The notes below the pieces were generated by a model. The model saw only the letters and a program-made list of their open reading frames with translations, did not search any database and had not been told where the DNA came from. Below are positions 8,188 through 10,787 of a stretch of DNA of 34,173 nt, in pieces. Positions within the stretch are counted from its first letter, which is position 1, and every line of letters starts with the position of its first letter. The translations under genes and the position numbers were made by a program. This stretch comes from a virus: UHGV virus genome UHGV-0113711; one strand, written 5' to 3'.

Positions 8188-8400
8188 TCATCGTGTTGCT
8201 CCTTTAAAGATTTGTTTCTGACGATTAATGAACATTCTTTCCTGCTTGAAATAGCCTGCTTCAATTTCGACTGACTCTGTTAGATGTTGCTTAGGGTATT
8301 TTTCGCGACTAGCGCAATGTACATTTTTTCGTTGTAACATAAAACTAATTTTCACATAATCGCGCTTGCAAATTACACACTTGTAATCATGGCCTGTCAT
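8188..8400 (-). CDS. Small Cys/His-containing protein (70 aa), downstream of the retron reverse transcriptase
   Basis: ORF with a good ribosome-binding site (AAAGGAG, ~5 nt spacing). Contains CVIC and HC pairs suggestive of a small zinc-binding module. Same strand as the reverse transcriptase, 188 bp downstream. Confidence 0.55.
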   Translation of the reverse strand: MTGHDYKCVICKRDYVKISFMLQRKNVHCASREKYPKQHLTESVEIEAGYFKQERMFINRQKQIFKGATR

Positions 8401-8587
8401 ATATACTCCTTTGTAAAACTATATTTATAGCCTCCATAACATTACAAAAGAATGATATTTTTAATTTGAGGTGTCGTCCAAATATGATTATATTCCAAAG
8501 TGACATTAATGAATATTGTCCCGACTACGGAATAGGGATTAAAATAAACCGTAACCGGGAAATATATTTATTATCCATTTTTAACCA

Positions 8588-10357
8588 TCATGGATAGTAC
8601 AAATTTTTAAAGTGATTATTAATATCAACCATAGCATCAAGAATTGGTTTGAACAATGAAAAATCTATAGTCTGTCTATTTTCTCTGATAATATTGTTGG
8701 CAAACCTGTCTTTTCCAAAAGTAGTAGTGCTATCATGATTATTACTTTTATCAAAGGATTTACCGTTAATTGTCTTTGTCAGAACTTCATCTTTGAAAAA
8801 GTCTTCCATGCACGATTGTTTATCACCAGCCAATAGTGGAGTTAACAATACGTAGAGGTTATTCTCTAAATGTAAAAATTTATGTTTTCTTACGTCCTCT
8901 GATTTTCTAGGCAGGTGAGAATATTCTTTGATTATATTATTAATAAAATCAGATGGCCCAGTGTCATTATCCAAAACAATTATTACTGGATTTTTAGGCG
9001 GTTGTCTTTCAAATTTCTTGCATTGTTCTCTATGCCTTCTAAAGAATCTTACATAGTCAGCAGCCCCACCGTAGAGGTCTAAAAAATATTCCTTTTTTGC
9101 GTTTGTTTTGAATAACGTAATATTTAAAATTCTATTCTTTGTTCTATCGTCAACTCTAACCAGAGCAGGATAACTTAAATACAAAGAATCAATTGCACAT
9201 TTCAAATAAATTGGATCTGTTTTACCTTCTGTCAAAACTGTAGGCTTTATATTCCCATAAAAATACTTATAATGAAGAAAGTTACTGAATGCTGTCTCTC
9301 TTGAATTCAATTTGAGAGTAAAATTAATTCCAGTTTTCTTTAGCACATATTTTTCTGGGAGTGTATGTTTTTTAGCGTTAATGTTATTATACTTATCAAG
9401 CATATCAATATAAACGAAGCGGCCTTCAAGTTCATTTAGAGTACCTTTTCGCGGTTTTCCACTAATATCCAAAAGGGTAAAATCCCCTTCTTTATAAAGT
9501 GCATGCGCCATAGCTCTGGTTTTTTTAATATAATCTTTATTGACATTTATTTTTTTGTTTACGGTTAAACCTGTTACTTCCTGCCTTGATGTATGCCGCA
9601 ATATTCTGGTCTTATTATTATTAATTTTAAATCCAGCTTTTTCAATTTCATTAACTAACAATGGTCCTAACTCGTTAGAATTCTCATTTATAACAATTGA
9701 GTCAGGAAACTGATTTTTGTTAGTTGAGAATGTTATATCATCTGCATATCGACTATAACTGCATCCATTAGAAAGTGCCAACTTTGACAATCTAATATCT
9801 AAAATATTACATATAAGATTGCTTATTACAGGAGAGCAAGGACTTCCTTGCGGAAGTTTTCCATCATAGCAAGCTATCTGCGCAATTATAGTTGCTATTG
9901 ATGGGTGCAAATTAAAATATTGATTCGCGATAAAATAACCACGGACCCTACCGAAATTAAATGTAGGGAAAAAATCCTCAAGATCAATATTTAAAACATT
10001 GGTTTTATTTCTATGTCTTTCTGCATTTGTTATTATTGTTTTATTTTTCTCAAATCCATGAGATAAGCTAGGGGTGATATTATTTGTTTTCCATATTTCG
10101 CTCTGACAAACATACAATAAATCTGATAAACGCCTTTGTATGTCTTTTAGTTTTTCAGTAGGCGCAAATATCTCTCTGTCACCTCCAGACTTCTTTTTTA
10201 TAATAAATCTTTCATATTGATGCTCAGGTCGTATTCTGTACAGGACATTAGTAAGAAAAGAAACTTTAATTTGAAGTAAGCGTGCAAACTCAAATTTGGT
10301 CTTGCATGACTTGAGTCTTTCTAAGTAGGAGGGAGTGAACATAATAGTAAATTCCAT
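8588..10357 (-). CDS. Retron-type reverse transcriptase with C-terminal Toprim domain (Ec67-family architecture)
   Basis: Reverse-transcriptase motifs are KKSGGDREIFAPT (box 1/2), LNIDLEDFFPTFNF (box A), LPQGSPCSPVISNLICNILD (box B'), YSRYADDITFST (box C, YADD) and SRQEVTGLTVN. The C-terminal ~250 aa carry Toprim signatures TVLTEGKTDPIYLK (conserved Glu) and PVIIVLDNDTGPSD (DxD). Size (584-589 aa) and block order match my recollection of the Ec67 reverse transcriptase (586 aa). The true start may be the Met at 10342. Confidence 0.9.
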   Translation of the reverse strand: MEFTIMFTPSYLERLKSCKTKFEFARLLQIKVSFLTNVLYRIRPEHQYERFIIKKKSGGDREIFAPTEKLKDIQRRLSDLLYVCQSEIWKTNNITPSLSHGFEKNKTIITNAERHRNKTNVLNIDLEDFFPTFNFGRVRGYFIANQYFNLHPSIATIIAQIACYDGKLPQGSPCSPVISNLICNILDIRLSKLALSNGCSYSRYADDITFSTNKNQFPDSIVINENSNELGPLLVNEIEKAGFKINNNKTRILRHTSRQEVTGLTVNKKINVNKDYIKKTRAMAHALYKEGDFTLLDISGKPRKGTLNELEGRFVYIDMLDKYNNINAKKHTLPEKYVLKKTGINFTLKLNSRETAFSNFLHYKYFYGNIKPTVLTEGKTDPIYLKCAIDSLYLSYPALVRVDDRTKNRILNITLFKTNAKKEYFLDLYGGAADYVRFFRRHREQCKKFERQPPKNPVIIVLDNDTGPSDFINNIIKEYSHLPRKSEDVRKHKFLHLENNLYVLLTPLLAGDKQSCMEDFFKDEVLTKTINGKSFDKSNNHDSTTTFGKDRFANNIIRENRQTIDFSLFKPILDAMVDINNHFKNLYYP

Positions 10358-10373
10358 TATTAATTATGTTATT

Positions 10374-10502
10374 GCACATGCAGGCACTCTTACGCATTTC
10401 AAAGTGACGCCCAAGAAGATCCGACGTCCGTCAGAGGCGAATACTGCCGACCTTTTAATCACTGATTGCGATACCACAACCAACAAATCTACCTGCATGT
10501 GC
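10374..10502 (-). ncRNA. Candidate retron msr-msd non-coding RNA bounded by a1/a2 inverted repeats (approximate)
   Basis: Perfect 11-bp inverted repeat: gcacatgcagg (10374..10384) and cctgcatgtgc (10492..10502), spanning 129 bp immediately 5' of the reverse-transcriptase start on the minus strand. This is the position and scale expected for retron a2/a1. The internal msr/msd boundary and branch G are not determined. Confidence 0.5.
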
Positions 10503-10787
10503 CTTGCTAATTTATCATAGTTAACAATCAAAACAAGCACTTTTGAAAATGGCTGTATCTTATTGATTAACTAATCATGGTCAAAGCCGAACATTCCTCG
10601 TGAAGATTGTTAGAATTTGAGATCTTTACGAGCACTTAACAGACTGTCAGATTCAGTCATGGAGCAAGTTGAATGCAATGTTATCATGTATCACTTTTTC
10701 TTTTTCGTCGTTAAGATGGTTCATAAAACTTACCATTAAGTCGATTGATAACTAGTAATTACATCTGTAGGTTCTCTTGATGATTTG

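What the first reader, a model, noticed from the sequence alone, without database searches (positions are those of the whole stretch)
8188..10520. Ec67-family retron (reverse transcriptase fused to Toprim) carried inside a prophage
The 584-589 aa minus-strand protein has all canonical reverse-transcriptase boxes (LNIDLEDFF, QGSPCSP, YADD) and a C-terminal Toprim-like domain (TEGKTD and VLDNDTGP). That architecture is, from established knowledge, specific to the Ec67-type retron, an anti-phage defence class whose Toprim nuclease is the presumed effector. A candidate msr/msd lies immediately upstream. The protein is clearly diverged from the Ec67 reverse transcriptase as I recall it, so this is a distinct family member.
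Basis: partly seen in the sequence, partly recalled or inferred. Interest (0 to 1): 0.8.

Follow-up and report, generated by a model that had tools for sequence, protein, structure and literature searches.

The report
Ec67-type retron in a prophage
This is an intact but untested relative of the well-studied E. coli anti-phage retron Ec67 (Eco2), carried as swappable cargo inside a prophage; it is a correct but fairly ordinary find.

Summary
The observation and interpretation both hold. Window 8588..10342 (-) encodes a 584-aa protein (589 aa from an upstream ATG) that passes the NCBIfam Ec67-fusion model (708.7 bits, cutoff 450) and matches PADLOC RT-Toprim_I-C (7e-216). It is 50.6% identical to the solved retron Eco2/Ec67 protein, and an AlphaFold model superposes on it at TM 0.88-0.90. 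YADD, EGxxD, DxD, E518 and K549 are invariant across 118 relatives.

The msr/msd lies at 10374..10502 (-). It has a 13-bp a1/a2 stem, an invariant branching G (10489), one msr hairpin and a predicted 64-nt msDNA. Across 26 lineages, 95% of pair cells are paired and 19 of 21 pairs show compensatory changes.

The element sits in a tailed prophage beside ybiT, in a variable slot between the small and large terminase genes. A related prophage carries different cargo there. No neighbouring gene travels with the retron.

By homology it most likely works like Eco2: the msDNA cages the Toprim RNase, phage nucleases destroy the msDNA, and tRNA cleavage stops translation. This was not tested here.

RefSeq already names the protein (WP_000494974.1). 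It is a new, uncharacterised member of a known kind, type I-C1.

The parts
8588..10342 (-). RT-Toprim fusion gene (584 aa plus stop). An in-frame ATG at 10357 would give 589 aa.
   Evidence: ORF. RefSeq CDS WP_000494974.1 mapped through. NCBIfam NF038237 708.7 bits against cutoff 450. PADLOC RT-Toprim_I-C 7e-216. PDB Retron Ec67 E = 5.5e-189. The second ATG is favoured because homologues align from M6, residues 1-6 have pLDDT below 50, and the a2-to-start spacing of about 31 nt matches other lineages.
9560..10201 (-). Reverse-transcriptase fingers/palm domain (residues 53-266). The YADD catalytic box is at 9737-9748.
   Evidence: Pfam RVT_1 4e-23 over residues 53-266. YADD is invariant in 118 relatives. 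Coordinates.
8591..9259 (-). Toprim nuclease domain (residues ~367-589). EGKTD is at 9215-9229, DND at 8963-8971, E518 at 8804-8806 and K549 at 8711-8713.
   Evidence: Aligned to Eco2 E374/G375/D378/D460/D462/E515/K546. All are invariant in 118 relatives. Full-length fold match to 9lm3/9i2f/9s1f at TM 0.86-0.90. Roles of these residues come from PMC12405507 and PMC12916289.
10374..10502 (-). Retron non-coding RNA gene (msr-msd), bounded by the a1 and a2 inverted repeats.
   Evidence: Inverted repeat. Fold -53.4 kcal/mol, z = -4.5. Alignment with 25 other lineages including authentic Ec67. Covariation.
10490..10502 (-). a1 arm (GCACAUGCAGGUA).
   Evidence: Pairs with a2 over 13 bp. 12 of 13 pairs show compensatory changes across lineages and 98.2% of cells are paired.
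10374..10386 (-). a2 arm (UGCCUGCAUGUGC).
10489..10489 (-). Predicted branching guanosine, the 2'-OH primer for msDNA synthesis. Equivalent to Ec67 rG15.
   Evidence: Invariant G directly after a1 in all 26 lineages, followed by A-U-U-U. It aligns with Ec67 rG15, whose 2',5' bond is seen in cryo-EM (PMC12405507). Base confirmed.
10461..10484 (-). Single msr stem-loop, equivalent to Ec67 rG20-rU42.
   Evidence: Fold. 7 of 8 tested pairs show compensatory changes and 89.9% of cells are paired.
10388..10451 (-). msd template. The predicted 64-nt msDNA has the + strand sequence 10388->10451 (TCTTACGC...GCCGAC).
   Evidence: Boundaries transferred from Ec67 through alignment A2: dT1 lies opposite the invariant A before GUGCC, and the stop is at the column of Ec67 G52. 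This is an inference, and the 3' end could be off by a few nucleotides.
10557..10584 (-). Candidate sigma-70 promoter for the retron transcript (TTGACC-16-TAAGAT). Low confidence.
   Evidence: Consensus scan, 9 of 12 matches. The region as a whole is not enriched for such sites over shuffles.
7943..10849 (.). Variable cargo segment of the prophage that holds the retron.
   Evidence: Homology to the retron-less related prophage L063 stops at 7942 and resumes at 10850. L063 carries three unrelated genes there.

Best explanation
This is an intact type I-C1 (Ec67/Eco2-family) retron. It is a two-part unit: a non-coding RNA (10374..10502, -) and a single RT-Toprim fusion protein (8588..10342, -).

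Shown here: the protein's family, fold and catalytic residues; the ncRNA's architecture and its conservation; and the absence of any linked accessory gene.

Inferred from Eco2 experiments:
1. The RT binds the ncRNA and primes from the 2'-OH of G10489.
2. It copies the msd into a branched msDNA of about 64 nt.
3. msDNA-bound protomers assemble into a trimer in which the msDNA cages the Toprim active sites.
4. During infection, a phage DNA endonuclease (DenB-like or A1-like) degrades the msDNA.
5. The freed Toprim RNase then nicks tRNAs and other RNAs and shuts down translation.

The prophage carries the retron as lysogen-protecting cargo in a swappable slot between its small and large terminase genes.
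For: Family and fold:
- NF038237 708.7 bits against cutoff 450.
- PADLOC RT-Toprim_I-C 7e-216 over the full length.
- 50.6% identity to the Eco2 PDB chain over 581 aa.
- AlphaFold pLDDT 90.2, with TM 0.88-0.90 to 9lm3/9i2f.

Catalytic competence:
- YADD, E377, G378, D381, D463, D465, E518 and K549 are invariant in 118 relatives.
- dN/dS is about 0.07 against the nearest lineage, L019.

ncRNA:
- a1/a2 stem plus msr hairpin, 95% of cells paired against 26-44% in slid controls, and 19 of 21 pairs with compensatory changes.
- The G after a1 is invariant.
- The authentic Ec67 ncRNA was verified in 14 genomes.

Subtype: EGxxD + DxD + IC-type ncRNA corresponds to I-C1 in Mestre et al..

Self-contained unit: no neighbour co-occurs with the retron in other lineages, and the upstream 246-aa ORF is prophage backbone.

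Mechanism source: PMC12916289 and PMC12405507. Eco2's non-catalytic functional residues K318, K325 and Y421 are conserved here as K322, K329 and Y424.
Against: - No experiment exists on this lineage, and no paper mentions the protein.
- The msd is the most diverged part: 37 identical positions of 70 aligned against the Ec67 msDNA.
- The trimer-contact loop is only 41% identical, and Eco2 K328 is Thr here. Trimerisation, caging and trigger specificity could therefore differ.
- The base before the predicted stop is G, not the flipped U51 of Ec67, so the msDNA length is uncertain.
- The promoter call is weak, and no terminator was found downstream of the gene on its strand.
- In both complete genomes that carry this retron the prophage is IS-damaged. 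This says nothing against the retron itself, but the element is rare: 2 of 5426 genomes.
Confidence: 0.85

Rival explanations
1. It is a functional Ec67-family retron, but with a different trigger or target range from Eco2. The diverged msd and trimer loop would make it sense other phage nucleases or DNA-modifying activities than DenB/A1, or cut a different RNA set.
For: The msDNA shares only 37 of 70 aligned positions with Ec67's, while the msr is nearly identical. Toprim identity is 44% and trimer-loop identity 41%. Eco2 itself protects against phage families that lack DenB and A1, so other triggers exist.
Against: The msDNA is still C-rich single-stranded DNA (19 C, 5 TC dinucleotides). That makes it a plausible substrate for a dC-specific endonuclease such as DenB. 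The catalytic site is identical.
Confidence: 0.25
2. It is a decaying or inactive remnant that resembles a retron but no longer makes msDNA or defends.
For: The lineage is rare (2 of 5426 complete E. coli genomes). The host prophage is IS-disrupted in both of those genomes. A sister lineage, L004, does carry a frameshifted RT-Toprim gene.
Against: The ORF is uninterrupted at full family length. All catalytic residues are intact. The ncRNA pairs perfectly. dN/dS is about 0.07. The same sequence recurs at 100% identity in independent genomes and viral contigs.
Confidence: 0.05
3. The retron serves the prophage's own life cycle instead of host defence. For example, it might regulate packaging or lysis timing, given its position between terS and terL.
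For: The location between the two terminase genes is unusual.
Against: A related prophage lacks the retron and has unrelated genes in the same slot, so it is dispensable cargo. It is transcribed on the opposite strand to the packaging genes. Other family members sit in unrelated contexts: the P2 cargo site and a chromosomal island near dhaR.
Confidence: 0.03

Closest known systems
Retron-Eco2 (Ec67), type I-C1; PDB 9LM3, 9I2F, 9I2G, 9S1F
   Same: - Same two-part architecture: ncRNA plus a single RT-Toprim gene.
- Same fold (TM 0.88-0.90).
- Same catalytic residues.
- Same ncRNA plan: a1/a2 stem, branching G followed by AUUU, one msr hairpin, and a conserved GCGUAAGAGUGCC run into a2.
- Also prophage-borne.
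   Different: - 50.6% protein identity (44% in Toprim, 41% in the trimer loop).
- Predicted msDNA of 64 nt against 67 nt, with only 37 of 70 aligned positions identical.
- Eco2 S513 is Cys516 and K328 is Thr332. Both columns vary across the family.
- Carried in a tailed prophage with a serine integrase, between terS and terL, whereas Ec67 sits at the P2-like site between the replication/DinI genes and the portal gene.
The common E. coli Ec67-family lineage (WP_000476153.1, locus L002; 523 of 5426 complete genomes)
   Same: It is the closest E. coli relative, at 72% protein identity. The a1 arm and msr hairpin are identical, the predicted msDNA is also 64 nt, and 53 of 65 aligned msDNA positions are identical.
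   Different: It lies in a chromosomal island next to dhaR, beside an ABC-three-component system, not in a prophage with structural genes. It keeps Ser at the Eco2 S513 position. No experimental work on it was found in the literature searches run here.
Retron types XII (RT-TIR) and XI (RT-protease)
   Same: The RT domains are related: PADLOC hits of about 1e-100 over residues 12-329. All are single-gene RT-effector fusions of the same RT clade.
   Different: Their C-terminal effectors are TIR or protease domains. Here the C-terminus is Toprim, and the RT-TIR NCBIfam model scores 283.7 bits against a cutoff of 600.

Membership tests
Type I-C1 retron (Ec67/Eco2 family) | Retron-clade reverse transcriptase with an intact YADD catalytic box | tested here: met
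   Pfam RVT_1 4e-23. The best PADLOC and NCBIfam hits are retron RT models. YADD 204-207 is invariant in 118 relatives.
Type I-C1 retron (Ec67/Eco2 family) | Toprim domain fused to the RT C-terminus, with motif IV EGxxD and motif V DxD (Mestre et al. 2020) | tested here: met
   EGKTD 377-381 and DND 463-465. Definition from PMC7736814. Full-length fold match to Eco2.
Type I-C1 retron (Ec67/Eco2 family) | Whole-protein score above the curated Ec67-fusion model cutoff | tested here: met
   NF038237 retron_Ec67_fus: 708.7 bits against cutoff 450, covering model positions 1-572 of 572.
Type I-C1 retron (Ec67/Eco2 family) | Cognate ncRNA directly upstream on the same strand: a1/a2 inverted repeats, a branching G at the foot of a1, a single msr hairpin, then the msd | tested here: met
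   Located at 10374-10502 (-), 31 nt upstream of the start codon. Alignable to verified Ec67 ncRNA. 95% of cells paired and 19 of 21 pairs compensatory.
Type I-C1 retron (Ec67/Eco2 family) | No separate effector gene (single-gene system) | tested here: met
   None of seven flanking ORFs recurs beside the retron in about 50 other loci. The flanks are prophage backbone. No flanking ORF other than the separate TIR protein has a PADLOC hit.
Type I-C1 retron (Ec67/Eco2 family) | Production of branched msDNA (2',5' link to the branching G) | not testable with these tools
   Needs nucleic-acid extraction. The prediction is about 64 nt, with the sequence of + strand 10388-10451.
Type I-C1 retron (Ec67/Eco2 family) | msDNA-dependent trimer that cages the Toprim domain | tested here: inconclusive
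   K318, K325 and Y421 equivalents are conserved, but K328 is Thr and the trimer loop is 41% identical. No multimer modelling was done.
Type I-C1 retron (Ec67/Eco2 family) | Anti-phage phenotype that depends on both the RT and the Toprim active sites | not testable with these tools
   Shown for Eco2 only.
Type I-C2 retron | Motif V is DxE instead of DxD | tested here: not met
   The motif is D463-N-D465. Definition.
Type XII (RT-TIR) and type XI (RT-protease) retrons | C-terminal TIR or trypsin-like protease domain | tested here: not met
   PADLOC RT-TIR and RT-Protease models align only to residues about 12-329. NF042941 scores 283.7 bits against cutoff 600.
Tailed prophage | Integrase plus packaging, head, tail and lysis genes, contiguous and adjacent to a chromosomal gene | tested here: met
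   PHROG hits for serine integrase, endolysin, terS, terL, portal, head/protease, tail fibres and tape measure. The ybiT flank has 53% GC against about 38% in the element. IMG/VR lists the same sequence as viral contigs.

The most novel reading that the evidence does not exclude
This lineage and its common E. coli sister (L002, 523 genomes) form an uncharacterised I-C1 subclade about 50% diverged from Eco2. Its msr is almost unchanged, but its msd and trimer loop are rewritten. If msd sequence sets which phage nucleases can uncage the Toprim, this natural variant would have a different trigger spectrum from Eco2. It would then be a ready-made comparator for working out how msDNA sequence encodes trigger specificity.
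Probability: 0.3. Interest if true: 0.4.

Novelty: new member of a known kind. Interest (0 to 1): 0.25.

Why it matters
The practical value is modest.
- It adds a precisely mapped ncRNA, which public annotation and Rfam both lack, and a predicted 64-nt msDNA to a protein that RefSeq already labels.
- It shows that E. coli holds at least four Ec67-family lineages, in three different kinds of genomic site.
- It identifies a swappable cargo slot between terS and terL in one prophage family.
- A 50%-diverged homologue with conserved msr and rewritten msd is a useful natural comparator to Eco2, both for trigger-specificity studies and for retron-based DNA production tools.

It does not change how this class is understood.

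Tried and rejected
- Rfam, at gathering and at permissive thresholds, has no family for this ncRNA. Only chance snoRNA/lncRNA hits appeared.
- I suspected the Ser513->Cys516 change at a metal-B ligand might disable the nuclease. I rejected this because the column is highly variable in the family: Ala 55, Met 22, Cys 15, Ser 11 of 118.
- I tested whether flanking ORFs are retron accessories: the 99-aa ORF, the TIR protein, terS, the 70-aa ORF, the 246-aa ORF, the 64-aa ORF and the 59-aa ORF. None co-occurs with the retron elsewhere, and the 246-aa ORF is prophage backbone.
I treat it as non-coding 3' sequence.
- Folding the predicted msDNA as DNA gave no significant hairpin (z = +0.9). The same is true for Ec67 (z about 0), so this does not discriminate.
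- dN/dS is saturated for most pairs. Only the L019 comparison was usable.
- The first dN/dS run failed because I placed the second ATG at 10343. The correct position is 10342.
- Mestre et al.'s supplementary tables are not held. Literature searches for the accession, for strain MS115-1 with retron, and of the retron census found nothing on this lineage.
- I first assumed the window was E. coli MS 115-1. It is not, because it lacks the IS3 in terL.
- I first assumed L002 was canonical Ec67. It is a separate lineage.
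Full report
**Observation**

The window has a 589-aa ORF at 8588..10357 on the minus strand. RefSeq annotates the identical sequence from the second in-frame ATG, which maps to 8588..10342 and gives 584 aa, as WP_000494974.1. The second start is the more likely one, for three reasons:
- Homologues align from that Met.
- Residues 1-6 are the only disordered part of the structure model.
- The spacing from the ncRNA to the start codon then matches other lineages.

**Protein identity**

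- Pfam finds RVT_1 over residues 53-266 (4e-23).
- PADLOC's best models are the full-length RT-Toprim_I-C models (7e-216, profile positions 2-550 of 552). The RT-TIR and RT-protease models align only to the RT half.
- NCBIfam's Ec67-fusion model NF038237 scores 708.7 bits against a curated cutoff of 450 and covers the whole model.
- The best PDB sequence matches are the cryo-EM chains of retron Ec67/Eco2 (E = 5.5e-189), at 50.6% identity over 581 residues. By region, identity is 57% in fingers/palm, 48% in the thumb/linker, 41% in the trimer-contact loop and 44% in Toprim.
- An AlphaFold2 model built on 118 relatives has mean pLDDT 90.2 and pTM 0.80. It superposes on full-length Eco2 chains 9lm3, 9i2f and 9s1f at TM 0.86-0.90 over about 580 columns, while other retron RTs match only the RT half.

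**Catalytic residues**

The Eco2 papers define YADD 199-202 and Toprim residues E374, D378, D460 and D462, plus S513 and E515 and a catalytic lysine. Their equivalents here are Y204-D207, E377, G378, D381, D463, D465, E518 and K549. Every one is invariant in an alignment of 118 family members.

The one difference is Cys516 in place of S513. That column varies across the family (Ala 55, Met 22, Cys 15, Ser 11), so it does not indicate inactivation. Of the non-catalytic Eco2 residues whose mutation impaired defence, K318, K325 and Y421 are conserved here and K328 is Thr. Against the closest lineage the gene shows dN 0.134 and dS 1.99, indicating strong purifying selection.

**The ncRNA**

Directly upstream on the same strand, 10374-10384 and 10492-10502 form a perfect 11-bp inverted repeat. 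In the RNA fold this extends to 13 bp and closes the region, at -53.4 kcal/mol, z = -4.5, with no shuffle folding as well.

I recalled the Ec67 ncRNA sequence from memory and verified it. It occurs at 100% identity beside Ec67-family RT genes in 14 E. coli genomes. Its numbering also reproduces the published rG15, the rG20-rU42 hairpin, the U51/G52 stop and the 67-nt msd.

I extracted the upstream regions of about 50 related loci from viral contigs and E. coli genomes and aligned 26 distinct ones. All share one plan:
- a variable a1 arm;
- an invariant G followed by A-U-U-U;
- one msr hairpin;
- a variable msd;
- a conserved GCGUAAGAGUGCC run leading into a2.

On the a1/a2 and hairpin pairs, 95% of cells are standard pairs against 26-44% when the partner is slid by 1-3 columns. 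19 of 21 pairs show changes on both sides, and no shuffle reaches the observed covariation.

Mapping Ec67's experimentally defined msd ends through the alignment puts the branching G at 10489 and the msd at 10388-10451. The predicted msDNA is 64 nt. This length is an inference: the base before the stop position is G here, not the flipped U of Ec67.

The msr is nearly identical to Ec67's, but the msDNA shares only 37 of 70 aligned positions. Neither msDNA folds significantly on its own. That agrees with the cryo-EM report that Ec67 msDNA does not form a simple hairpin. Rfam holds no family for this RNA.

**Subtype**

Mestre et al. define three variants: I-C1 by EGxxD + DxD with an IC-type ncRNA (Ec67 is the example), I-C2 by DxE, and I-C3 with no determined ncRNA. 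This locus has EGKTD, DND and an Ec67-homologous ncRNA, so it fits I-C1.

**Context**

Window 1-1476 is the 3' part of ybiT at 53% GC. The rest is about 38% GC, and the retron segment is the lowest at 31-34%. The element begins with a serine integrase. It also carries an endolysin, a small terminase (7533..8081, phrog_57), an intact 627-aa large terminase (13648..15531), a portal, a head-protease/major-head protein, tail fibres and a tape measure. IMG/VR holds the same sequence as predicted viral contigs. The prophage claim is confirmed.

The retron lies in a 5.5-kb stretch of minus-strand genes between terS and terL. A related prophage, found in four other genomes, matches on both sides but loses homology between window 7942 and 10850. 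It carries three unrelated genes of unknown function there. So the retron occupies a swappable cargo slot.

No neighbouring ORF travels with the retron in other lineages, and the 246-aa ORF just upstream is prophage backbone. This fits a single-gene system.

**Distribution**

Among 5426 complete E. coli genomes:
- This lineage occurs in 2 (MS 115-1 and 2021CK-01361). In both, the terminase region of the prophage carries an IS insertion (IS3 within terL in MS 115-1; ISEc68 in 2021CK-01361). The window itself has an intact terL, so it comes from neither genome.
- A 72%-identical sister lineage occurs in 523 genomes, in an island near dhaR.
- Canonical Ec67 occurs in 14 genomes and a fourth lineage in 15. 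Both are at the P2-like prophage cargo site.
- Outside E. coli, the nearest relatives are 71-77% identical (Serratia, Enterobacter, Phytobacter).

**Mechanism**

Nothing was measured on this locus. By homology, the best-supported mechanism is Eco2's, as established in PMC12916289 and PMC12405507:
1. The RT primes from the branching G and makes msDNA.
2. msDNA-bound protomers form a trimer in which msDNA cages the Toprim sites.
3. Phage endonucleases (T-even DenB, T5 A1) initiate msDNA decay.
4. The uncaged Toprim acts as an RNase that nicks tRNA acceptor stems and other RNAs, arresting translation.

Identity of the parts is shown here. Assembly state, trigger and target are inferred. They are the steps most likely to differ, given the diverged msd and trimer loop.

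**Verdict**

The locus is a new, uncharacterised member of a well-known, structurally solved family, and the protein is already labelled as such in RefSeq. Interest is therefore low to moderate. What this analysis adds is the exact ncRNA map, the subclade placement, and the cargo-slot context.

Noticed in passing
window 6027-7222 (+): A 99-aa ORF followed by a 298-aa TIR-domain protein (Pfam CAP12-PCTIR_TIR 4.8e-38; PADLOC candidate system PDC-S35 9.6e-71) lies just upstream of terS. This is a second likely defence gene in the same prophage. The identical protein is also present in the retron-less related prophage.
   Followed up: partly
window 7533-15531; L063 3864-11954: The small and large terminase genes are separated by about 5.5 kb of mostly opposite-strand genes. 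The part at window 7943-10849 is exchanged between related prophages. The alternative cargo is three ORFs with no Pfam or PADLOC match, plus a NUMOD3 homing-endonuclease-like gene further along.
   Followed up: partly
L001 26589-27709 (E. coli MS 115-1); H44 (2021CK-01361): In both complete genomes that carry this retron, the terminase region of the prophage carries an insertion sequence (IS3 within terL in MS 115-1; ISEc68 in 2021CK-01361). The window has an intact 627-aa terL, so it comes from a third, undamaged copy.
   Followed up: partly
L004 6164-7920: A fourth E. coli Ec67-family lineage (15 genomes, P2-like prophage) has its RT-Toprim gene frameshifted after about residue 476. The Toprim domain is probably broken there. 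An intact version exists in L007.
   Followed up: partly
L003 5990-7930: PGAP's CDS for canonical Ec67 starts upstream of the msr/msd (6001-6132) and reads through it. This is an over-extended start that hides the ncRNA.
   Followed up: no
PMC12405507, section on the Toprim domain: The paper names 'catalytic lysine K562' for Eco2, but residue 562 of the deposited chain is Asp. The family-invariant lysine is K546 (K549 here). This is possibly a numbering carry-over from the OLD nuclease used for comparison.
   Followed up: partly
window 8080-8099 (+): A strong terminator-like hairpin (8-bp stem, then a T-run) lies at the 3' end of terS, overlapping its last two bases. Late transcription would need another promoter or antitermination to reach terL across the cargo region.
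   Followed up: no
window 11476-11670 (-) and 13068-13559 (-): Two small minus-strand ORFs in the cargo region look like helix-turn-helix proteins. The counterpart of the second one in L063 is annotated as a GntR-family regulator. Their function and any link to cargo expression are unknown.
   Followed up: no
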